From a virus, in IMG/VR virus record IMGVR_UViG_3300021093_000062, positions 4,575 through 68,574 of that record: a stretch of 64,000 nucleotides of DNA; one strand, written 5' to 3'. Positions 2,704 through 42,232 of this stretch are shown one piece after another (within the stretch, counting starts at the first letter, position 1; each line of letters begins with the position of its first letter). The position numbers and the translations under genes were made by a program. The notes beneath the pieces are model-generated. The model made no database searches. It saw only the letters and a program-made list of their open reading frames with translations, and was not told the origin of the DNA.

Positions 2704-3147
2704 TCAAACTGGCCAATGATACGGAAGGTCATTAGGAACAGCTGGGAAGTGTGGAGCGTAGTGGCCTGAGAGTTTACGCAACAGGTTTGATTGATGAGAC
2801 ACCATCACCTTTTGTTCAACTTCTTCATCATCAAGCCACCAAGGTAAAACTGGTAGAGAATTTGCTATTACTGGGTCCTTAGTCATTACTACTGCACTCT
2901 TAACTAGACAAGTGTCTTTGTACCCTCTTTTCACCCATTCATCGCAAATAGCAACTTGATACTGTAACAGGGCTTTTTCATAACCTCTCCACATCTTTAC
3001 CGCTGGATGGTTTCTCCAACCTGTGGACACACCAACCAAGCAGTTGATTATCTGAAGGTTTTCAACACGTTGCTTGCCGAGACGCTTGTTGTCTAAAACT
3101 TGTGCGTTTTGTCTGTAGTTTTTGCCGTAAGGCAAGAAAGTTTGCAT
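2704..3147 (-). CDS. MSMEG_6728-family / pyrimidine-dimer DNA glycosylase-like protein
   Basis: 'MQTFLPY...LDNKRLGKQRVE..Q...GWRNHPAVKMWRGYE...SHQSNLLRK...LPYHWP' family signature. Confidence 0.85.
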   Translation of the reverse strand: MQTFLPYGKNYRQNAQVLDNKRLGKQRVENLQIINCLVGVSTGWRNHPAVKMWRGYEKALLQYQVAICDEWVKRGYKDTCLVKSAVVMTKDPVIANSLPVLPWWLDDEEVEQKVMVSHQSNLLRKLSGHYAPHFPAVPNDLPYHWPV

Positions 3148-3380
3148 TAGTTATTCTCCTCCATCTCGTTGTACCATTCTTCAGCCAACTCAATTGCTGG
3201 AGCGTACTCGTGCCACGTACCGTCGTCTCCGACTTCAGTTGAGTATGGGACCCTACCAACAGCGCACAAATACTCAAACGCGGCGAGAATGCGTTTCCAC
3301 TGCTCCTCATTGGGTAACTCATCCCATTCCGGTTGGTACTTGCAGTAGTAGTCCTCGTCATCGTTGTACCTAAACATCAA
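3147..3380 (-). CDS. Acidic hypothetical protein
   Basis: AAGGAGG RBS; coupled to neighbouring genes. Confidence 0.6.
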   Translation of the reverse strand: MMFRYNDDEDYYCKYQPEWDELPNEEQWKRILAAFEYLCAVGRVPYSTEVGDDGTWHEYAPAIELAEEWYNEMEENN

Positions 3381-3386
3381 TCCTCC

Positions 3387-4010
3387 TTAAGTCCACACCG
3401 TGTCGTTGGGCATACTTGCAGAAGTGCACCGGCGACGAATCTTGTGACGAATCTTGTCTTTGTCTTGTAAGAGGTTCGACGGATCGTCAAATACAAGCGG
3501 GAACTTTTCAGCAATACGCCACAAAAGACCGGCGTCAGACATTCGTGCGATGTTTTTGTCCCAGTTGATCACTAACAAATCTGACTTTGGCGGGCATACC
3601 CCCCGCACATCATGTTCGGTCAACACACGATCTTCGTGCATTACGAAGACAAACAGGTCAACACCCTTTCTATTGAGTATTGACCGTAACGAATAATACG
3701 AATTCGTTCCGACCATGACGACCTTATCAAATTCGTTAAAATCGTAGCTGTCCCCATTGATGATTGCTATGAGGTCGGGCTCGGACCAGTCGTCCGAGTG
3801 TCGAACCAGGCCCGCTTGCCGACGCAATCGCCATTCCGGCAAAGACCGGAACGTCTCAATCTTTTTTGGCAGGTCCCAGCAGCTAAGGAATTCGTGCGAA
3901 TCAACGAAATGGACTAGCTTGTCGTTGTCTTTAACTAGCTGGCAGGCCAAAGCAAGGCCAAACGTCGAAGCTCCGACGCCACCTCCTGCTTGTGCAATTG
4001 CAATTTTCAT
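3387..4010 (-). CDS. Degenerate ParA/MinD/Ssd-like P-loop protein
   Basis: N-terminal deviant Walker A 'AGGGVGAST'; C-terminal 'WD..IAR..DAGLL'; AGGAG RBS before ATG 4010. Confidence 0.55.
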   Translation of the reverse strand: MKIAIAQAGGGVGASTFGLALACQLVKDNDKLVHFVDSHEFLSCWDLPKKIETFRSLPEWRLRRQAGLVRHSDDWSEPDLIAIINGDSYDFNEFDKVVMVGTNSYYSLRSILNRKGVDLFVFVMHEDRVLTEHDVRGVCPPKSDLLVINWDKNIARMSDAGLLWRIAEKFPLVFDDPSNLLQDKDKIRHKIRRRCTSASMPNDTVWT

Positions 4011-4032
4011 TTTAATTCTCCTTTTTCTCTTT

Positions 4033-4551
4033 TTAACCAAACATAATGTCGCCGTACATAGCGTACTGCCAGAACAGGTCCTGGCTTTCGCTGTCCACGT
4101 CGTCTTCTATTACGTCTTTAAGCAAAGTTTGAGCCCAAACTTGATCCACGGGCAAAGACTTTAAAACTTCGATAATGTCTGGAACACTGAAAGTTTTGGT
4201 TACTTCGAAACGGGAAACGTGCCCCAACTTGCTTATAGCACGCGCCTCAATCTGACGGACGCGCTCGCGGGTGAGATTGAATTGCTTGCCCACTTCCTCG
4301 AGGGTGCGGGGTTCGCCCCGATCGAGGCCGAAGCGAAGTTTCATGATCTCGCGCTCGAACTCGTCGAGAGTGTTTTCTGGGTCAACCATAGTAATAGTTA
4401 TGAGGCCATCTTGTCTTTCAACGCGATTAACCCAACTATACCAAGCATTGCCGGTTAACATGTCAAAAACTTCGTTTTCATCCAAAGTTAATGTTGTTGG
4501 CAACAACAGTGTAAACATGTGTTTTTTTGTTTTCATTTTCATTTGAGTCAC
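4033..4551 (-). CDS. Small phage protein carrying an inserted sigma-70 region-4 (HTH) domain
   Basis: '[44 protein letters not shown]' closely matches the RpoD/SigA region-4 consensus; no regions 2 or 3. Confidence 0.85.
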
Positions 4552-5018
4552 ATCTCTTTCTGTAGTGTGTCTGGGTTGTAACCAATGTCGATTAGAAACT
4601 CTCTGAGTCTTTTTATCTCGGCATTGAGGGCATGGTACAGGTGCTGTCTTTCGATGTTTTCAATCAACGCCACCTTTTCTAAATGTTCTGGATTACAGCA
4701 AAGCGTGTTACGGCAAAGGTGATCCAGAGTTTCTGCTTTGGTCAAACTTACATGCTTATGCTGTTCATAAGACCATCTGTGTGCTTGATAGGCTTTGTTG
4801 CCTATGTACATTCGCCCGTATCCTTTGTCTACGGTGCCTGTCCATATCCAACACCCATCATCTGTTTTTTTGATGTTCTTCCAGAACTTATCTTCTGGAA
4901 GCTTGGATTCTTCAATTACGTGCAGAACTCCATCACGCTTTAGTTGTTTGTAATGGGCTGCACATAATCCTTTTGCTACTACCGGTTTATTGCACACCGG
5001 CCCTCTACATAGCGCCAT
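4548..5018 (-). CDS. HNH endonuclease
   Basis: 'CWIWTG...GYG...AHRWSY...[16 protein letters not shown]...EN' with N-terminal Cys/His zinc motif. Confidence 0.9.
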
Positions 5019-11447: not shown

Positions 11448-12728
11448 TCATTCTGGTGCCAGAGGGTGCTCCACGTCGGGCACGGCGGGTTCTTCAGGCT
11501 GAGGCTCAAACTCAGCACGAAGCATGTCTTCGATGCCACGGTCCTTGATGATTTCGGATACCACGATCTTCTCGTTTTGAGAGACGAACTGTCCCATGAA
11601 CGCCCACAAGCTGAAGTCAACTCCAAGATGAACCAAGTCGCCTTCAAGCAACTGCAACGATTTGGTACCGATTGGAGTGGTTATACTACGTTGTGCGCGA
11701 GCGTTACGCAATGCCTGACCAAGCAAACGTATAGCAGGAGACTTGATCAGTTTCTTTTCCACTTCTTCATCGTAATTCCATTCCAACAACTTGAAGCGGT
11801 TGGCAAAGGCTTCGTTCGTCTTGGACATGCCAGCATAACCGGGATTCCATGAGGAAAGAATCCACAAGTTTTTGTTGGCATGTACGATTTCGGGACGGAA
11901 CGAACCCTCATGGGTTTCCACTCCAGTAACCGGATCGGTGAACACTCGTCCGTCCCACACCGGCTTGCGGATGTTGACGAACTGGTGACGGTTGTCTAGC
12001 AACGGGTGGATCGCAGCGGTAACAGCACCGCTCATTGCGTTCACCTCGTCAAGGTACAAGATACCGCCGATACGTACCGCTAAGGCAACAATGCCCTCCA
12101 TCCACACCAACTGCTCCTGACCATTGGCAACCACTGGTCGGTACTGGCCAAAGAGGTCATGGTCGGTGATTGCTGACGAACCGGCAAGAGTAAAAACCGG
12201 TAACGGTTTGCTAAGTCCCAACTGCTGTGCCACCTTGAATGCCATAACTTGAGTTAAGTATGTCTTACCTGACTGAGTGTCGCCCACTAGGGCGATAGAC
12301 ACCGGATACCCGTCGTTCTCGTCACGACGATTGAAGTATTTCATCATCACGTCGATATCGGTGAGGTTTCCTGCAAGAGTACGGGATACGTAGTTCTTGG
12401 GGTCGATGTTCGGTCGGAACGGATCGAGCGCCGGATCATCCAACGACTCGATTCGCAGGTTGCTGACTATCACCGCGTGCTGGTGCTGAGGGACATTGGA
12501 CGCGGCGGCGTTTGGGACGTTGGAACGTCCCAAGATAACAATGCCTTTGGGCAGTATCTCAACGACGCCCAGCATAGGCTCATCGAACGTCACTTCGATT
12601 TTGCTGCCGGGGCCACCAGGCACCAACGTTGCTCGGGTGATTGTTCCTTCGGCATTCTTGAACGGCGGGTACTTACCCATCACTCTCATGCCTTCTTTTA
12701 ATTCTTTGGTACTTGCCATTCTTACCAT
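11448..12728 (-). CDS. MoxR/CobS-like AAA+ ATPase
   Basis: Walker A 'GDTQSGKT', Walker B 'LYLDEVN', 'NPGYAG...AFANRF'. Confidence 0.9.
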   Translation of the reverse strand: MVRMASTKELKEGMRVMGKYPPFKNAEGTITRATLVPGGPGSKIEVTFDEPMLGVVEILPKGIVILGRSNVPNAAASNVPQHQHAVIVSNLRIESLDDPALDPFRPNIDPKNYVSRTLAGNLTDIDVMMKYFNRRDENDGYPVSIALVGDTQSGKTYLTQVMAFKVAQQLGLSKPLPVFTLAGSSAITDHDLFGQYRPVVANGQEQLVWMEGIVALAVRIGGILYLDEVNAMSGAVTAAIHPLLDNRHQFVNIRKPVWDGRVFTDPVTGVETHEGSFRPEIVHANKNLWILSSWNPGYAGMSKTNEAFANRFKLLEWNYDEEVEKKLIKSPAIRLLGQALRNARAQRSITTPIGTKSLQLLEGDLVHLGVDFSLWAFMGQFVSQNEKIVVSEIIKDRGIEDMLRAEFEPQPEEPAVPDVEHPLAPE

Positions 12729-15048: not shown

Positions 15049-15090
15049 AAAAAAAACACGAGGCTCACATATAGGTGTGTGAGTCTCGTG
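15049..15090 (-). terminator. Intrinsic terminator
   Basis: CACGAGACTCAC...GTGAGCCTCGTG hairpin followed by a T-run on the minus strand. Confidence 0.75.
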
Positions 15091-15096
15091 TTGGAC

Positions 15097-15270
15097 CTAG
15101 TCGTCGTAACGGTTGCGCCATTCCTCGTAGTACCATTCCGTTATTTCCTTCACCCCAAACGGGATAATGGAAGCAACGAAAAAGCCCAGAGAGAACAAAC
15201 TCCAGTCCTCGTTGTATGACAGTAGAGCCAGTATAAAACTGGCTATGATCATCAACTCTGTTACTATCAT
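15097..15270 (-). CDS. Small membrane protein (not in ORF track)
   Basis: Manual translation MIVTELMIIASFILALLSYNEDWSLFSLGFFVASIIPF... (57 aa); AAGGAG RBS. Confidence 0.6.
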   Translation of the reverse strand: MIVTELMIIASFILALLSYNEDWSLFSLGFFVASIIPFGVKEITEWYYEEWRNRYDD

Positions 15271-15434
15271 TGCTTCTCCTTTTTCCTGCGGCTAGCGGCT
15301 GCTGTCCGCTTTTCTTTTGCTTTTCCAACACACGCTGCACATGGTGCTGGGTTGTTCCAAACCCTGTCACCGTACGGGTGGTCGACCTCGACGTGGTTTT
15401 CGTGACCACATCTGTAAATGCATACAAACTTCAT
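15267..15434 (-). CDS. Small Zn-binding basic protein (not in ORF track)
   Basis: MKFVCIYRCGH...PCAAC...RRKKEKQ (55 aa); AAGGAG RBS; stop overlaps the next start. Confidence 0.6.
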   Translation of the reverse strand: MKFVCIYRCGHENHVEVDHPYGDRVWNNPAPCAACVGKAKEKRTAAASRRKKEKQ

Positions 15435-15461
15435 GGATTCTCCTTTTTTGTGGAAACTAGA

Positions 15462-15599
15462 GGTTGTAACAGCGGGTTACCTTTCCCAGCGAGCAAGAGA
15501 AGACGGATAATGAACCAAACCGTCTTGTGCTGGTGATTTAACGCCATGATGTCGCAGGTTACCCTTAACCCGGAAAGGACGGGGCTAGCTGTTACAACC
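15462..15599 (-). ncRNA. Putative ~140-nt structured RNA downstream of tRNA-Arg
   Basis: Perfect 12-bp terminal stem GGTTGTAACAGC/GCTGTTACAACC enclosing further stems. Confidence 0.5.
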
Positions 15600-15601
15600 A
15601 G

Positions 15602-15674
15602 TGCATCAGGAAGGGGTCGAACCTACAACCTACAGATTAGAAATCTGTTGCTCTATCCATTGAGCTACTGATGC
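15602..15674 (-). tRNA. trnR-UCU: tRNA-Arg (UCU)
   Basis: GCATCAG/CTGATGC acceptor stem, TAGCTCAATGGATAGAGC D-arm, ACAGA-TTTCTAA-TCTGT anticodon arm, GGTTCGAC T-loop; CCA not encoded. Confidence 0.92.
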
Positions 15675-15681
15675 ATGTCAT

Positions 15682-16260
15682 CGGTGGGCACAACAAGCAT
15701 GTGCGGGAAGTTCCTCGAACTACAGCCTACACTACCTAGGATGTGTACTGTATTCTTCTCAACTCTATGCAGCTTACAGTTGTTGATAATCCCATTGTTA
15801 TCATGCCTATTGTAGGAAGCCATTTTCGCTTCATACATAATAGGGTTCGATGGTTACCTGCCCGACAACACACAGGTAATGGCTAGGTACTAGCAGCCAC
15901 GACTAGGATGTGTAAACCCCACTTACGCCTGGGGGTACGGCGTTTTCGCGTTGGCTGTCTTTATATAGTACATCAGTCTACATTACTCATGGCCAACACT
16001 ACACGAAGTAGCATGTTAGGATTCTCACCAAAGAGACTATACAGTCTGTTTGTATAGTGATTTTGCTACTACATTTACCGTGATACTGCCCACGGCTGCA
16101 ACCTGTGCAACATAGAAATAGGAAGCATTTGCACATGCTTTGGTTTATGAACCACTACCTGCCGGGATACACCCAATGCGTTTCTATTGCGCATCTGTAC
16201 ACTTGTAGTTCTGCAGAACTACGCACTGCGTCTAGTGCCTAGGTCGGCTGTACATCACCG
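15682..16260 (-). ncRNA. Putative large ornate non-coding RNA (~580 nt)
   Basis: No ORF over 60 aa; long-range closing helices, about 10 internal hairpins and an H-type pseudoknot; abuts tRNA-Arg. Confidence 0.65.
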
Positions 16261-16376
16261 CTTAGATCTTAGTCCTCTGCGAAATTTCTGCGATGCTCAC
16301 TTCACTTGCTCCTTTTCTAATAATGCCCCACTCAAATATGGTGGAGTCAATGGTTGATACAGCCAACAACGATCTT

Positions 16377-16495
16377 GCCAGTGCATGGATCAGCCAGTCT
16401 TGCAGGGGGTGAGACGGCGATCAACATACACTGGCTTATGCCGTATACAAGGCTATGTGCTGATAGCAACTACAAATGGGGGGTGAGTAGTGCTA
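16377..16495 (-). ncRNA. Twin hairpins with C-rich loops (6C-RNA-like)
   Basis: Stems 16377-16435 and 16464-16495, each carrying CUCACCCCC(C) at the loop. Confidence 0.4.
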
Positions 16496-16525
16496 AAGCA
16501 GACGTTGCACTCAGACAACCTGGCA

Positions 16526-16633
16526 CAACGAAAGCATAGACCCATACATAGGCACAAGTTGTGACATTTGTCACATGATAGTGACAAGTGCCACATGGTG
16601 AGACATTTGTCACATGGTGAGACATTTGTCACA
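16526..16633 (-). promoter_or_regulatory. Promoter with four tandem CRP-type boxes
   Basis: -10 TATGCT (16538-16533); TGTGA-N6-TCACA-like sites at 16560-75, 16580-95, 16599-614 and 16618-33. Confidence 0.65.
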
Positions 16634-16760
16634 CTAGGCACCTCGTACTGGACGTCGCACCGTTTGCGACGCAAACCGGTCCAACCAGACGCAGGGAGCA
16701 GAGATGCCCCTCACACTAGGCTGGGTATGGCAGGGCAGATTTCTCAGCCGGATTTCGGGC

Positions 16761-16796
16761 AAAGAAGAAAGCCCCCCACCCTTGCGGGCGGGGGGC
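16761..16796 (-). terminator. Intrinsic terminator of the GC-rich gene
   Basis: GCCCCCCGCCC-GCAA-GGGTGGGGGGC followed by TTTCTTCTTT on the minus strand. Confidence 0.75.
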
Positions 16797-16814
16797 AATC
16801 TCCCTGGGGGGGGG

Positions 16815-17366
16815 TCAGAGGCTCTTGGAGAGAGCCACGACCAACGCTACCAGTTGCTGCTGAGCAACTGTCCGCTGATCGGCGGGTGTGGTCACCAATG
16901 CCAACTGGCAGGCTGCGAGTTGGCTGGTGGCACGCTCTGTGGCTATCCGCACTTCACGCTGTGCGGGGGTCTCTCCGTTGTTGGATTGACCCTCGGTCAG
17001 CCGTGCCCACGCTGCGTTCTGGTCTTGTGCCCCTGCGAGCAACGCCCTCAGAACGTCCGCGGACTTCTTGGAAGCCAAGAGCCGGTTCCAAACCGTCTGC
17101 CCCGCTTTCGCGGAGCCGACCGCCGGAAGGCTGAAGAAGAGTCCCCAAACGATGAGGATTCCCTCCCAGCCCGCGGGTAGCGTGTTGGCGGTGTACGCCT
17201 TAGCGATGACGTCCCCGATTTCCCTGCGGATTTCGGTCTCCTTGAGAGCCGCAATAGCGGGGGCGGAGGGACGCAAGTCGTCCCACGCTGCTTTCGCGGT
17301 TGCCTTGGAGTTGGACGCTGTGGCATCTGCCAAGAGCGTTTGCCTGACTGTGTCTAACACCGACAT
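16815..17366 (-). CDS. Ala-rich helical hypothetical protein in a GC-rich island
   Basis: AAGGAG RBS, own terminator, GC-rich codons unlike the flanks. Confidence 0.7.
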   Translation of the reverse strand: MSVLDTVRQTLLADATASNSKATAKAAWDDLRPSAPAIAALKETEIRREIGDVIAKAYTANTLPAGWEGILIVWGLFFSLPAVGSAKAGQTVWNRLLASKKSADVLRALLAGAQDQNAAWARLTEGQSNNGETPAQREVRIATERATSQLAACQLALVTTPADQRTVAQQQLVALVVALSKSL

Positions 17367-17567
17367 GTTGTCTCCTTGTCGTAATGCCGGCGCTTGTCGC
17401 CGGTCATGCCATCGTTATGGGGGCGACCGGAAAGCGTCCTCGGTAGGGCCCAGCCCCCAATGATCACCCCACTACGCAATAGCCCTATTCTAAATGGGGG
17501 GTTACCCGTGGGTAACTGGGCACCTGGGTATAGGGTAATATAGACCTATACACAAGAAGGTTAACAC

Positions 17568-18371
17568 ATGCCCTACTTCTCTAACCATTACAGATATTAC
17601 GGGTACTCTAGCGGTGAAAGACGACCTGACGCAAGTCTTACTGTCAAGCACAACCCAGATAAAACAACAACTCTTATTCGTGAATCCGGTGCTCGCCCTC
17701 TTGGGCATAATGGCGATATTCCCCAGCTTTTTACGATGGAAGAAAACGCTAAAGCTCTTGCGCAAGTTAGAAAACTTCGTAAAAAACGGAAGTACCGCAG
17801 TGGCGTGCCATTCTCAGAATCAGGACTGACGTACGACCATAAGAGCGGCACATTCCGCGTCGCCAAAGAAGACGACCAATTGCAGTTGTTTGCCCATGAT
17901 CCCCCGAAACCTTCACAGGTTGAAATGCTAGTTTCCCGAGACAATATGGGAGCCAGAATAACCGCAATGACATTGCTGGGGCTAGCCGACATGGATGCAC
18001 GGGCACGAACGGGGCACCCATTGCAAACTTCATCGGACTTGTCCCCCCACAGTTTGCGTCTTGTACGACATCTGCGAGACCGTGGAGCCGTGAGCAACAC
18101 GGATGTTCCGAGTACCAGCACTAACACGATAGGTTTTGAGTTTGCTGAAGCAACCCTTGACGAGGCAGGAAATAATCTTAAGGACATACAACGCCCCGGT
18201 TCTGGATACACAGATAGATCCCCCGACGCCCGTAGTGCCCGTGAGCACATTATATCAATGCGTCGCCCCGCTAAGGAAACGCCTAAGCCGCAACCTACGC
18301 AGACCGAGCAACCTACATTGTGGGAGGGTTTAGGTATTCAACACCTTAATCGTACCCAATTCCAAATTTAA
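17568..18371 (+). CDS. Hypothetical protein ending in 'LNRTQF'
   Basis: 267-aa ORF; TAATAT -10 and AAGG RBS upstream. Confidence 0.7.
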   Translation: MPYFSNHYRYYGYSSGERRPDASLTVKHNPDKTTTLIRESGARPLGHNGDIPQLFTMEENAKALAQVRKLRKKRKYRSGVPFSESGLTYDHKSGTFRVAKEDDQLQLFAHDPPKPSQVEMLVSRDNMGARITAMTLLGLADMDARARTGHPLQTSSDLSPHSLRLVRHLRDRGAVSNTDVPSTSTNTIGFEFAEATLDEAGNNLKDIQRPGSGYTDRSPDARSAREHIISMRRPAKETPKPQPTQTEQPTLWEGLGIQHLNRTQFQI

Positions 18372-23997: not shown

Positions 23998-24071
23998 GCC
24001 GGATGGTGCGTCCGGTTGACGCAAGGTGTCTTATAAACACCCGTAGACGGGTTCAACTCCCGTATCCGGCA
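23998..24071 (+). tRNA. trnI-UAU: tRNA-Ile (UAU)
   Basis: GCCGGAT/ATCCGGC acceptor stem, GGTGT-CTTATAA-ACACC anticodon arm, ACGGG-TTCAACT-CCCGT T-arm; non-canonical G at position 8. Confidence 0.8.
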
Positions 24072-24088
24072 CTGTTATAATTGATAAC

Positions 24089-40211: not shown

Positions 40212-40548
40212 AAAATCTAAAAAACCAGCTATTCCAAAGCTTGTTTTAATTACATGGCTTGACGCCTTTGATGGCCCTACTGGGTGGGTGGACCCCGCAG
40301 AGTACAAGCCCCACCCAGTTCGCCCAATCTCAGTTGGTTGGGTAGTAGAAGATTTTTTAAAAGACCACATTACGTTAATTGGCACATGGTTAGCAGACCG
40401 TAACGAGTTAGGTAACAAGACTTATTACAGCAATCCTGCTCATATCCCGTTAGGGATGATACAATCAATAACATACATTGACGTTCCGAGTTCTATAGAA
40501 CAACTAATCATTAATGATTTAAACACCAGGGGATTTAATGCCGATTGA
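40189..40548 (+). CDS. Hypothetical protein
   Basis: 'LITWLDA...GW...SVGW...IPLGMI' pattern. Confidence 0.65.
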   Translation: MHKTKKSKKSKKPAIPKLVLITWLDAFDGPTGWVDPAEYKPHPVRPISVGWVVEDFLKDHITLIGTWLADRNELGNKTYYSNPAHIPLGMIQSITYIDVPSSIEQLIINDLNTRGFNAD

Positions 40549-42232
40549 TTTCTGGTCACCAAGTTACAGAGCTTCTTCTAGTGATTTAACTGTTGCAATA
40601 TCCCCGCTGGGTCTAGTTGAACTTGCTGATGAAGAGTTTGAAGTGCATGGACCTAGGCTAAACCGCTATAGCGCATGTTGGGCATGGTACCTTGGTCACC
40701 ACTGGTCGTATCGTCGTGAGCAGGGCGAACAGAACATCACACTAAATTACGCTAGAACTTTTGCCGATTACATTACAAACTTTTGTTTTGGTAAGGGCGT
40801 ACAATGGAAAGTTCCAGAACAGAACGCTGCAATTATCCCTCACCTACTACACAAAGTTTGGGAAGTAGACAACTCTAAGCACAACGTTTTATGGGAAATG
40901 GGGCAGCTTGCCGGAGTAACAGGGGACTGCTTTGTCAAAGTTGCTTACGAAGACCCATTTATTGACCCTCTAGGTATCACGGTTGAGGGGCGAATCAGAG
41001 TAATACCATTAAACCCCGCTCACTGCTTCCCTGAATACCACCCACATGATCGTGATCGTCTTCTGAGATTTAAGCTCAAATACCGATTCTGGGGGACTTC
41101 ACCAGAAGGTACACGGCAGGTATACACATTTACTGAAATCCTTACTGATGACAGTATCGAACAATATATCAATGATGAACTAGTGGATCAGTACCCTAAC
41201 CCGATTGGCCGTGTGCCAGTAGTGCATATTCCAAATATAACTATCACGTCGTCACCTTGGGGTCAATCTGACATTTGGGACATAATCCCACTTAACCGCG
41301 AACTAAACGAAAAGATGACCGAAATATCGGACATAATTAACTATCATGCTGCTCCCGTGACAATCATCATTGGTGCTAAGGCAAGCCAGCTAGAGCGTGG
41401 ACCAAAGAAGGTTTGGGCTGGGTTGCCAAAGGATGCGTCAGTTACAAACCTAGAGTCACGTGGTGACATGGCTGGAGCTCTTCAATACATTCAGTTCCTA
41501 AAGCGTGTTATGCACGAAATAACTGGAGTACCGGAGACCGCACTTGGCCAGTTCCAACCAGTGTCTAACACTTCTGGTGTAGCTTTGTCAATTCAATATC
41601 AGCCGTTGATGAATCGCTACAACATGAAGAGAATACATTTTACAAAAGGTCTGGAAAAGATTAACGAAATAATCATCCGAACTGCTGCAATTTTCCAACC
41701 TGAGCTTCTTATTTACGACCCCTCTAAGGCCGAAGCGCCGGAGGGTGATCAATTGCCACAACTTGACCCAGCCGACCCTTTGACCTACAAAACTCAAGTA
41801 CACTGGCCAGAACCACTCCCAGTTGATGTTCTTATTAAACTTAACGAAGCTCAGGCAAAGATGGCGATGGGGCTTGAGTCCAAAGAAGGCGCTATGCGTA
41901 TGTTGGGTGAAGAGTTCCCACGTGAAAAACTTGCTGAGATATTTGAAGAATTGCGAGATGATGCTGTTGATCAAGGAGCGCTTGACATGCTTCGCGCACA
42001 GATCAACCAAGCGGTCATGCTCGCCACAGGCTTGCTACCCGGCCCCGAAGGTACCAGCACGGTACCCGCTGGAGGTGCTAATGTAACAAGTGCAGGTTCT
42101 CCTGCCCAACCTGGAGGCCCCTTACCGGGAACCCAGGCGACAGGCGGTCCTGTAGAAGGAATGGTAAACAATATAGTTGCAAAGGCATACGGAGCTAGGT
42201 TTGCCCAGCGCCGTGTTCCTGACGAAGAATAA
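40538..42232 (+). CDS. Portal protein (SPP1 gp6-like)
   Basis: Size and position after terL; 'PNPIGRVPVVHIPN', 'WGQSD', 'SNTSGVAL'. Confidence 0.88.
   Translation: MPIDFWSPSYRASSSDLTVAISPLGLVELADEEFEVHGPRLNRYSACWAWYLGHHWSYRREQGEQNITLNYARTFADYITNFCFGKGVQWKVPEQNAAIIPHLLHKVWEVDNSKHNVLWEMGQLAGVTGDCFVKVAYEDPFIDPLGITVEGRIRVIPLNPAHCFPEYHPHDRDRLLRFKLKYRFWGTSPEGTRQVYTFTEILTDDSIEQYINDELVDQYPNPIGRVPVVHIPNITITSSPWGQSDIWDIIPLNRELNEKMTEISDIINYHAAPVTIIIGAKASQLERGPKKVWAGLPKDASVTNLESRGDMAGALQYIQFLKRVMHEITGVPETALGQFQPVSNTSGVALSIQYQPLMNRYNMKRIHFTKGLEKINEIIIRTAAIFQPELLIYDPSKAEAPEGDQLPQLDPADPLTYKTQVHWPEPLPVDVLIKLNEAQAKMAMGLESKEGAMRMLGEEFPREKLAEIFEELRDDAVDQGALDMLRAQINQAVMLATGLLPGPEGTSTVPAGGANVTSAGSPAQPGGPLPGTQATGGPVEGMVNNIVAKAYGARFAQRRVPDEE

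What the first reader, a model, noticed from the sequence alone, without database searches (positions are those of the whole stretch)
15682..16260. Candidate large ornate non-coding RNA (~580 nt) abutting tRNA-Arg
Seen: this stretch has no ORF over 60 aa in a gene-dense phage but is packed with helices. Long-range closing pairs are CGGTG 15682-86/CACCG 16256-60, TACAGCC 15721-27/GGCTGTA 16246-52 and ACCTAGG 15734-40/CCTAGGT 16238-44. Internal hairpins lie at 16205-22, 16123-40, 16036-58, 15993-16019, 15854-79, 15806-44 and 15784-803. An H-type pseudoknot is formed by ACGCC 15925-29/GGCGT 15939-43 crossed by ACCCC 15916-20/GGGGT 15932-36. A 12-nt direct repeat (CTAGGATGTGTA) occurs at 15736 and 15903. 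G-U wobbles favour the minus strand, and the 3' end lies about 7 nt before tRNA-Arg. Established: ROOL and GOLLD are large structured RNAs found in phages beside tRNAs. Inference: this is a divergent member of those classes or a new large phage RNA class in actinobacterial phages.
Basis: partly seen in the sequence, partly recalled or inferred. Interest (0 to 1): 0.9.

Follow-up and report, generated by a model that had tools for sequence, protein, structure and literature searches.

The report
New large folded RNA beside phage tRNA
A roughly 590-base stretch just upstream of a tRNA gene in an uncultured phage encodes an intricately folded non-coding RNA. Three related phage lineages keep its shape through compensating mutations, it matches no catalogued RNA family, and its function is unknown.

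Summary
Window 15675-16262, read on the minus strand, is an ORF-poor, helix-rich stretch ending 7 nt before tRNA-Arg(UCU).

Folding energy alone is weak evidence: z is -3.4, but four coding controls reach -2.6. The case rests on comparison. I found homologues in only three lineages plus one sub-lineage, at 77%, 61% and 61% identity. On them, 88 pairs in 16 helices are 98.9% paired and 23 pairs show compensatory change. No shuffle of 500 matched this, and slid controls gave at most 5.

There are 44 G-U cells and no A-C cells, which fixes the minus strand. No reading frame is conserved.

Several reader hairpins are window-only insertions. The 12-nt repeat is not conserved. The two inner "closing" helices compete with an invariant local helix.

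No Rfam family, ROOL and GOLLD included, matches at E up to 10. The family is narrow: 4 of 50 related IMG/VR records and 0 of 4 BRock-like cultured phages.

Best reading: a new family of large tRNA-flanked phage RNA, cut from an early transcript by tRNA processing. Expression was not tested here. The scan met this family before on other DNA (e1-6101064, e1-6201055).

The parts
15675..16262 (-). Large structured non-coding RNA, 588 nt here and 522-527 nt in homologues. Its 5' end abuts the stop codon of a 12-codon ORF remnant; its 3' end abuts tRNA-Arg.
   Evidence: Conserved in three lineages. 88 pairs in 16 helices are 98.9% paired and 23 are compensatory. No conserved frame. No Rfam match.
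15682..15686 (-). 3' strand (CACCG in RNA sense) of the outer closing stem P1. Its partner CGGUG lies at 16256-16260.
   Evidence: Invariant in 5 of 5 aligned sequences. Predicted both by the single-sequence fold and by the alignment folds. No covariation is possible.
16074..16255 (-). 5' domain, the best-conserved part at 85% mean column identity. It holds a multi-stem junction closed by 16241-48 / 16098-16104, hairpins 16223-38, 16205-22, 16189-16202, 16141-54 and 16123-40, and hairpin 16077-96.
   Evidence: 49 pairs, 98.5% paired, 10 compensatory; 0 of 500 shuffles reach the covariation score and slid controls give at most 2.
16105..16134 (-). Pseudoknot PK1. The loop GUGCAA (16129-34) of hairpin 16123-40 pairs with UUGCAC (16105-10).
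   Evidence: Two of 6 pairs change on both sides and stay paired across lineages.
16205..16222 (-). Hairpin whose stem covaries at 4 of 5 pairs while its apical CUGCAG palindrome is invariant.
   Evidence: A role in RNA-RNA kissing is inference only.
15916..15943 (-). In RNA sense: ACGCC/GGCGU crossed by ACCCC/GGGGU.
   Evidence: The same topology occurs in all lineages with changed letters: GCACC/GGUGU and ACCUC/GAGGU in L101; CCACC/GGUGG and GCCUC/GGGGU in L093 and L106. Shuffles reaching the score: 0/200, 1/200, 21/200 and 24/200.
15855..15900 (-). Two adjacent hairpins: 15879-15900 (4 of 7 pairs compensatory) and 15855-78 (2 of 9 compensatory).
15690..15786 (-). 3' domain closed by helix 15780-86 / 15690-96, with 4 of 7 pairs compensatory. 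The interior is variable.
   Evidence: The alignment of the interior is uncertain.
15793..15821 (-).
   Evidence: These columns are gaps in all four homologues.
15601..15674 (-). tRNA-Arg (anticodon UCU), directly 3' of the RNA.
   Evidence: ARAGORN; Rfam tRNA 70.8 bits. The same arrangement occurs in every homologue that reaches the tRNA.
15462..15599 (-). Second structured element, directly 3' of the tRNA, followed by a ribosome-binding site and the ATG at 15434.
   Evidence: 12-bp closing stem with 3 compensatory pairs across 4 sequences; perfect inverted repeat.
16262..16300 (-). A 12-codon ORF remnant marking a deletion. Relatives carry small ORFs plus tRNA-Met(cat) here, about 0.8-1.2 kb.
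   Evidence: read directly.
16301..16640 (-). Conserved leader (16301-16525) and a putative leftward promoter with four TGTGACA..TGTCACA palindromes (about 16553-16635). Probably the start of the transcript that carries the RNA.
Evidence: 82-90% identical in homologues; repeat family D1.

Best explanation
The minus strand of 15675-16262 encodes a large structured non-coding RNA of a family not yet catalogued.

Architecture:
- An outer stem (P1) brings the two ends together.
- A well-conserved 5' multi-helix domain is locked by a pseudoknot.
- A middle part carries a second H-type pseudoknot and two hairpins.
- A variable 3' domain has its own closing helix.

The RNA has no promoter or terminator of its own. 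It lies in the first part of the leftward, probably early, transcript, which starts near 16530. Behind it come tRNA-Arg, a second ~140-nt structured element, and then protein genes.

Most likely mechanism (inferred, about 55% given that the RNA is real): host tRNA-processing enzymes excise it. RNase P cutting at the 5' end of tRNA-Arg would leave a 3' tail of 7 nt after P1. The paired ends and compact fold would make it a stable free RNA that acts in trans during infection, as is assumed for GOLLD and ROOL. Its target is unknown. A host protein or ribosome-binding or self-assembling particle is the analogy, and the invariant CUGCAG apical loop is a candidate contact.

Shown: conservation, compensatory pairing, strand, absence of coding, absence of any Rfam match, and linkage to the tRNA.

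Inferred: transcription, processing, stability, and action in trans.
For: Homologues:
- Three lineages plus one sub-lineage were found: 76.8% identity (L101), 61.4% (L093) and 61.8% (L106, itself 95% identical to L093).

Pairing on the homologues:
- Full-length structure: 88 pairs in 16 helices, with 431 of 436 cells paired.
- 23 pairs have changes on both sides.
- 0 of 500 shuffles reach this, and slid controls give 0-5 such pairs.
- 5' domain alone: 10 of 49 pairs compensatory.

Independent test:
- Pairs of the window's own minimum-energy fold were checked in L093.
- Where both sides changed, 21 pairs were kept and 8 broken.

Strand:
- There are 44 G-U cells and no A-C cells.
- One-sided changes keep pairing in 18 of 50 cases on the minus strand against 11 of 60 on the plus strand.
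- Folding energy is lower on the sense strand in all three lineages.

Coding:
- Stop-to-stop frames are at most 58 aa here and 59 aa in L101.
- Indels are not multiples of three, and no frame is preferred in blastp.

Pseudoknots: both are kept with changed letters.

Context:
- Every homologue that reaches the 3' end abuts tRNA-Arg.
- This lineage lost tRNA-Met and the small ORFs but kept the RNA with tRNA-Arg.

Known families: no Rfam family matches.
Against: - Only three lineages of one narrow phage group carry it: 4 of 50 related records and 0 of 8 near-complete relatives. Statistical power is therefore low.
- The counted structure was derived from the same sequences on which it was counted.
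- P1 and the domain-closing helix never vary, so they lack covariation proof.
- Folding energy is only a little better than coding controls. The homologues reach only z -2.26 and -1.86.
- No transcript evidence was obtained here.
- The RNA is embedded in an operon, with no promoter or terminator of its own detected. That suits a cis-acting leader equally well.
- The alignment of the 3' third is uncertain.
- Some segments have competing pairings.
Confidence: 0.6

Rival explanations
1. It is a cis-acting structured leader or spacer. The fold does not make a free RNA. Instead it governs processing, stability or read-through of the long early transcript, setting the yield of tRNA-Arg and of the genes behind it.
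For: No promoter-like or terminator-like site separates it from its neighbours; one search found one weak promoter-like site in 15200-16800, outside the RNA. It lies between a conserved leader and promoter region and the first genes. A second structured element follows the tRNA. Sister lineages carry a different structured stretch, or nothing, at the same place.
Against: tRNA processing would sever it from the downstream genes. About 590 nt with two pseudoknots and 16 helices is far more than known leaders need. In relatives it lies behind a small ORF and a tRNA-Met, not at the transcript's start.
Confidence: 0.2
2. It is a diverged member of ROOL or GOLLD that the Rfam models are too narrow to detect.
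For: Same kind of place (phage, beside tRNAs) and a size like ROOL's average of 581 nt (papers). It has pseudoknots and multi-stem junctions.
Against: Neither family appears at E up to 10 in the window stretch, at E up to 5 in four homologous loci, or at gathering score in the whole window. GOLLD members often exceed 800 nt and share a universally conserved 3' region. Here the 3' part is the least conserved.
Confidence: 0.05
3. The conserved hairpins act in DNA, for example at a replication origin or a regulatory or packaging site in the turn-around region between the two gene arms, and not in RNA.
For: The stretch lies near the switch of gene orientation, where cumulative GC skew is close to its local minimum. 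Operator-like palindromes lie 300 nt away.
Against: 44 G-U cells and no A-C cells mean the helices exist on one strand only. Two pseudoknots and long-range helices are kept by compensation. No iterons or AT-rich unwinding tract were seen.
Confidence: 0.05
4. It has no function of its own: fast-evolving intergenic filler whose apparent covariation comes from a small, related sample and from fitting the structure to it.
For: Only three lineages. The tool's own warning says related sequences can beat every shuffle without structure. The energy z-score is close to coding controls. The region is a variable slot in this phage group.
Against: The slid controls, which keep relatedness, give 0-5 compensatory pairs against 23. 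A structure predicted from one sequence alone holds in another lineage, with 21 pairs kept and 8 broken where both sides changed. The RNA was retained across a deletion that removed its neighbours.
Confidence: 0.1

Closest known systems
ROOL RNA (Rumen-Originating, Ornate, Large)
   Same: It is a large ornate non-coding RNA of phages and prophages, often near tRNAs, averaging 581 nt, with multi-stem junctions and pseudoknots and an unknown function (passages read). The RNA here is 522-588 nt, touches a tRNA and has two supported pseudoknots.
   Different: There is no match to the Rfam model at any threshold tried. ROOL is described from several phyla, whereas this RNA is known from one narrow group of uncultured phages. 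Self-assembly is untested here.
[quoted passage not shown]
   Same: It is phage- or prophage-encoded and lies near tRNA islands. One studied member lies downstream of a tRNA-Met, and tRNAs can sit inside it. Relatives of this window have tRNA-Met upstream and tRNA-Arg downstream of the RNA.
   Different: There is no Rfam match. Many GOLLD members exceed 800 nt and have a universally conserved 3' region. Here the 5' domain is the conserved one.
Stable small RNAs of the phage T4 tRNA gene cluster (species 1 and 2). Recalled from memory; no call or paper was read.
   Same: They are non-tRNA structured RNAs co-transcribed with phage tRNAs and released by the tRNA-processing enzymes, with unknown function. 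This is the processing logic proposed here, and it fits the ~140-nt element at 15462-15599 especially well.
   Different: As recalled, the T4 RNAs are about 120-140 nt, which is far smaller than this RNA. No sequence comparison was made.
The same family on other DNA in this scan (e1-6101064, e1-6201055)
   Same: These are look-alike stretches in two other genomes. They correspond to the two homologous lineages I found independently (records G026 and G003). Their follow-up also found no Rfam match.
   Different: This window holds the longest version (588 nt, with two private insertions) and has lost the upstream tRNA-Met. The earlier statement that the RNA turns up in lake RNA samples was not checked here.

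Membership tests
ROOL (Rfam) | Significant match to the family covariance model | tested here: not met
   Not listed at gathering score, at E up to 10 on 15300-16700, or at E up to 5 on loci L105-L108.
ROOL (Rfam) | About 580 nt, with six multi-stem junctions and three pseudoknots | tested here: inconclusive
   The size fits (522-588 nt). Two pseudoknots and several junctions are supported, but the topology was not compared helix by helix.
ROOL / GOLLD | Phage or prophage location, often beside tRNAs | tested here: met
   The record is a virus contig. tRNA-Arg lies 7 nt after P1. tRNA-Met lies upstream in relatives.
GOLLD (Rfam) | Significant match to the family covariance model, including its universally conserved 3' region | tested here: not met
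   Not listed. The 3' third here is the least conserved part.
GOLLD (Rfam) | Many members exceed 800 nt | tested here: not met
   522-588 nt.
ROOL / GOLLD / OLE | Homo-oligomeric RNA-only assembly | not testable with these tools
   Only an invariant palindromic apical loop (CUGCAG, 16211-16216) hints at RNA-RNA contact.
tmRNA, RNase P RNA, group I/II introns, OLE, raiA, HEARO, 6S and all other Rfam 15 families | Match to the covariance model | tested here: not met
   In 15300-16700 at E up to 10, only tRNA, its antisense look-alike, and six chance-level hits (15-20 bits, E 1.8-6.6) were listed.
Protein-coding gene | An open frame conserved among homologues, with frame-preserving indels | tested here: not met
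Candidate structured RNAs of viruses (catalogue of 10,006; PMC10690425) | Listed in that catalogue, which was built from IMG/VR | not testable with these tools
   Only text passages were read.

The most novel reading that the evidence does not exclude
This is a third, unrelated class of large tRNA-flanked phage RNA. Like GOLLD and ROOL, it would be excised by tRNA processing and would self-assemble into an RNA-only particle, here through the invariant CUGCAG loop and the CCUAGG tract. Sister lineages fill the same slot upstream of tRNA-Arg with a different, non-homologous structured RNA: 'type B', about 400 nt, in 3 of 50 related records. If so, 'a big folded RNA next to the phage's tRNAs' would be a recurrent, convergently evolved functional module of phage early regions, not a curiosity of two families.
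Probability: 0.15. Interest if true: 0.85.

Novelty: new variant of a known kind. Interest (0 to 1): 0.62.

Why it matters
Large ornate bacterial and phage RNAs are few: ROOL, GOLLD, OLE and a handful more. Their functions are an open question, sharpened by the recent finding that they build RNA-only cages.

A further unrelated RNA of similar size in the same genomic setting would help in three ways:
- It gives another test case for what the tRNA linkage means.
- It offers a compact, pseudoknotted target for structure work.
- It suggests the phenomenon extends to phages related to actinobacterial phages.

This locus also supplies natural experiments. One lineage has lost the adjacent tRNA-Met. 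Sister lineages carry a different structured RNA, or none, in the same slot.

Tried and rejected
Searches for more homologues that added nothing:
- The neighbouring proteins 15065-15427 and 17568-18371 had no relatives in IMG/VR.
- The 120-aa frame at 15065-15427 had no homologues at all. It is probably mis-called; the real first gene seems to start at the ATG at 15434.
- A profile of the neighbour gene 16815-17366 recovered only G003.
- A second conserved motif recovered only the same contigs.
- nhmmer and fuzzy motif searches found nothing in the more distant relatives L095-L099.

Chance hits discarded:
- L100 lies inside a 295-aa frame of a GC-rich contig.
- L121 is a Verrucomicrobiota MAG with no model match.

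Other points:
- Expression: no RNA holder was listed, so read laying could not be used.
- MAFFT does not align the PK2 region of L093 and L106 by structure. I therefore left that region out of the pair count and tested the knot by a separate blind search.
- A helix that RNAalifold placed in that misaligned region was removed before the count.
- T-box-like idea rejected. The conserved single-stranded UAGAAA (about 16179-16184) is complementary to the anticodon loop of tRNA-Arg(UCU). However, it is GGGAAC in the L093 and L106 lineage, and a 6-nt match is expected by chance in about a third of RNAs of this size (my estimate).
Duplex energy against shuffled 3' domains was matched in 0/300 (window), 27/300, 28/300 and 26/300. 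I could not decide between them and the local helix 16241-48 / 16098-16104.

Papers:
- Searches listed nothing describing this RNA.
- I read passages only of 10.1101/2024.12.08.627333, PMC5737381 and PMC10690425.
- Morgado et al. 2020 was seen only as a reference entry.
- Supplements were closed, so the catalogue of PMC10690425 may hold this RNA.

Full report
CONTEXT

The window is bases 4575-68574 of a 68.5-kb IMG/VR virus record, estimated 74% complete.
- Its portal protein (40538-42232) is 54% identical to that of Streptomyces phage BRock and its relatives.
- An AAA ATPase (11448-12728) resembles those of Gordonia phages at about 30% identity.
- An actinobacterial host is therefore plausible, but it is only inferred.
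- Long ORFs run leftward from about 15430 down to 2700 and rightward from about 17570.
- The finding sits at the head of the leftward arm.
- ARAGORN and Rfam place tRNA-Arg(tct) at 15601-15674 on the minus strand.

THE OBSERVATION

- No ORF above 60 aa overlaps the stretch.
- The three long-range complements exist, and the window's own minimum-energy fold uses them.
- The 12-nt repeat is exact.
- A blind search finds the H-type pseudoknot, and 0 of 200 shuffles reach its score.

As a statistical signal, folding energy is weak.
- z is -3.42 on the minus strand and -2.83 on the plus strand, with 0 of 100 shuffles as good in each case.
- Four 596-nt coding controls from the same window give -1.97, -2.59, +0.14 and -2.12.

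HOMOLOGUES

A DNA search of 30 records that share the portal gene found partial matches to the stretch in 2 (G003, G026). In 5 more, only the tRNA matched.
- Exact-motif scans of IMG/VR added two contigs of the G026 type.
- A scan of JGI metagenome contigs returned six loci: one identical to the window, one identical to L101, a further copy of the G026 record cut off within the RNA, two of the L093 type and one new variant.
- After removing duplicates there are four informative sequences: the window (588 nt), L101 (527 nt, 76.8% identical), L093 (523 nt, 61.4%) and L106 (522 nt, 61.8%, and 95% identical to L093).
- Two exact-motif hits were chance: L100 lies inside a coding frame, and L121, a MAG, has no model match.

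COMPARATIVE STRUCTURE

RNAalifold on three lineages predicted 118 pairs, of which 33 were compensatory. I kept only helices in well-aligned columns and added one pseudoknot.

Full-length count on five sequences:
- 88 pairs in 16 helices.
- 431 of 436 cells are standard pairs.
- 23 pairs change on both sides.
- 0 of 500 shuffles reach the paired fraction, the compensatory count or the covariation score.
- The slid controls, which keep relatedness, give 0-5 compensatory pairs.

The 5' domain alone has 49 pairs, of which 10 are compensatory, and slid controls give at most 2.

The counted structure was derived from these same sequences, so I also ran a test that does not depend on that. I took the window's single-sequence fold and asked what happens to its pairs in L093. 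Where both sides changed, 21 pairs stayed paired and 8 broke. The figures for L101 were 10 and 6.

Strand:
- The structure holds 44 G-U cells and no A-C cell (read).
- One-sided changes keep pairing in 18 of 50 cases on the minus strand and 11 of 60 on the plus strand.
- Energies and z-scores are better on the sense strand in all three lineages.

Coding:
- Frames are short.
- Indels of 1, 2 and 5 nt lie inside the best-conserved domain.
- No frame stands out in blastp.

Kept with compensation:
- Hairpin 16205-22, with 4 of 5 pairs compensatory and an invariant CUGCAG apex.
- Hairpin 16123-40.
- Hairpin 15854-79.
- The pseudoknot at 15916-43. Its stems read ACGCC/GGCGU and ACCCC/GGGGU in the window, GCACC/GGUGU and ACCUC/GAGGU in L101, and CCACC/GGUGG and GCCUC/GGGGU in L093 and L106.

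Consistent but invariant: the outer stem 16256-60 / 15682-86.

Private to this window: hairpin 16036-58 and most of 15784-15844, which are insertions.

Contradicted: hairpin 15993-16019 overlaps the covarying helix 16063-69 / 16008-14.

Undecided: the two inner closing helices. Their 5' strand (16238-52) is invariant. The alignment fold pairs it locally with 16098-16104. The homologues keep some complementarity to their own 3' domains, but weakly: 27, 28 and 26 of 300 shuffles do as well.

The 12-nt repeat is not conserved.

THE LOCUS

Upstream in RNA sense lie four TGTGACA..TGTCACA palindromes and a leader, both 82-90% conserved.
- Behind the leader, relatives carry small ORFs and tRNA-Met(cat), followed by the RNA.
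- In this window those 0.8-1.2 kb are missing. A 12-codon frame at 16262-16300 joins the start of the first ORF to the end of the last.
- The RNA and tRNA-Arg were kept.

Directly after the tRNA comes a ~140-nt element whose 12-bp stem has three compensatory pairs. A ribosome-binding site and an ATG at 15434 follow.

The consensus scan found no promoter-like or terminator-like site that would set the RNA apart. The simplest reading is one early transcript cut into pieces at the tRNAs. That is inference.

KNOWN FAMILIES

Rfam 15 gives only tRNA at gathering score in the whole window.
- With permissive filters at E up to 10 on 15300-16700, it lists tRNA, its antisense look-alike and six chance-level hits. 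None is ROOL, GOLLD, OLE, tmRNA, RNase P or an intron.
- The same holds for four homologous loci at E up to 5.

From passages of two papers:
- ROOL averages 581 nt and has six multi-stem junctions and three pseudoknots.
- Many GOLLD members exceed 800 nt, with a universally conserved 3' region.
- Both occur in phages and prophages near tRNAs.
- GOLLD can carry tRNAs in its linker.

The RNA here resembles them in kind, size (ROOL) and setting, but fails the one membership test I could run.

Four literature searches listed nothing on it. A catalogue of 10,006 candidate viral RNAs built from IMG/VR (PMC10690425, passages only) might include it. Its lists are in supplements that I could not open.

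DISTRIBUTION

A covariance model of the 5' domain (R1, 183 positions) gave these results:
- 4 of 50 related IMG/VR records matched, and none of the 8 that are at least 90% complete.
- 0 of 4 BRock-like cultured phages matched, apart from one 8.5-bit noise hit.
- Nothing matched in the distant relatives' loci.

The portal proteins of G003 and G026 are 97-98% identical to the window's, while the RNA is 61-77% identical. The locus therefore evolves fast or is exchanged.

In three more distant relatives (G004, G006, G008) the stretch before tRNA-Arg holds a different conserved non-coding sequence.
- It is about 400 nt with a 94%-identical core of about 175 nt.
- It has predicted helices and no Rfam match.
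- A model of it (R2) finds it in 3 of 50 records and not in the window's lineage.
- Two further relatives have ORFs there instead.

The position before tRNA-Arg is thus a variable slot, often filled by structured RNA.

MECHANISM AND RIVALS

I commit to a stand-alone structured RNA released from the early transcript by tRNA processing and acting in trans. P1 would protect its ends, and its target is unknown.
- I put the reality of a selected RNA structure at about 0.75.
- I put the whole statement at 0.6.

The main rival is a cis-acting leader or spacer (0.2). Divergent ROOL or GOLLD, a DNA-level element, and no function are each 0.1 or less.

The palindromic apical loop and the GOLLD/ROOL precedent suggest self-association. 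This is speculation and is marked as such.

EARLIER NOTES OF THIS SCAN

- The same family was met on two other genomes. One follow-up reached the same verdict and reported reads in lake RNA samples, which I could not check because my single run search listed nothing.
- Notes on this window pointed me to the operator boxes and to the element after the tRNA. I checked their conservation.
- Many other 'new large phage RNA' notes exist in the scan. I did not use them for scoring.

LIMITS

- There are only three lineages.
- The structure was fitted and counted on the same data.
- The 3' third is poorly aligned.
- There are no expression data.
- Supplements were closed.

Noticed in passing
window 15462-15599 (-): A second structured element of about 140 nt lies directly after tRNA-Arg. 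Its 12-bp closing stem has three compensatory pairs across four sequences. A ribosome-binding site and the ATG at 15434 follow.
   Followed up: partly
window 16301-16640 (-): Four TGTGACA..TGTCACA palindromes (about 16553-16635) and a ~220-nt leader are 82-90% conserved, which is more than the RNA itself. This is probably the operator, promoter and leader of the leftward transcript.
   Followed up: partly
window 16262-16300: This lineage has lost about 0.8-1.2 kb that relatives carry here: small ORFs plus tRNA-Met(cat). A 12-codon frame is left, fusing the first ORF's start to the last ORF's end.
   Followed up: partly
L095:3069-3550(-), L096:2636-3053(+), L097:2614-3038(+) (records G006, G004, G008): A different conserved non-coding stretch sits before tRNA-Arg in more distant relatives. 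It is about 400 nt, has a 94%-identical core of about 175 nt, predicted helices and no Rfam match. A model of it finds it in 3 of 50 related records.
   Followed up: partly
window 16650-17400: A GC-rich island (0.63 against about 0.45 around it) holds a 183-aa minus-strand ORF (16815-17366) with no Pfam or PHROG match and only five protein clusters in the large database. A strong terminator-like hairpin follows at 16771-16796.
   Followed up: partly
L098 3581-3703 (-) (record G014): A sub-threshold Rfam tmRNA match (28.8 bits, gathering 47, E 3.9e-8) spans only 123 nt. It is perhaps a tRNA-like remnant near that phage's tRNA-Arg.
   Followed up: no
window 2704-5018 (-): Three leftward-arm genes have Pfam matches: pyrimidine-dimer glycosylase (2704-3147), a protein with sigma-70 region 4 (4033-4551) and an HNH or His-Me endonuclease (4548-5018).
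   Followed up: no
window 23998-24072 (+): A second tRNA gene, tRNA-Ile(tat), lies in the rightward arm.
   Followed up: no
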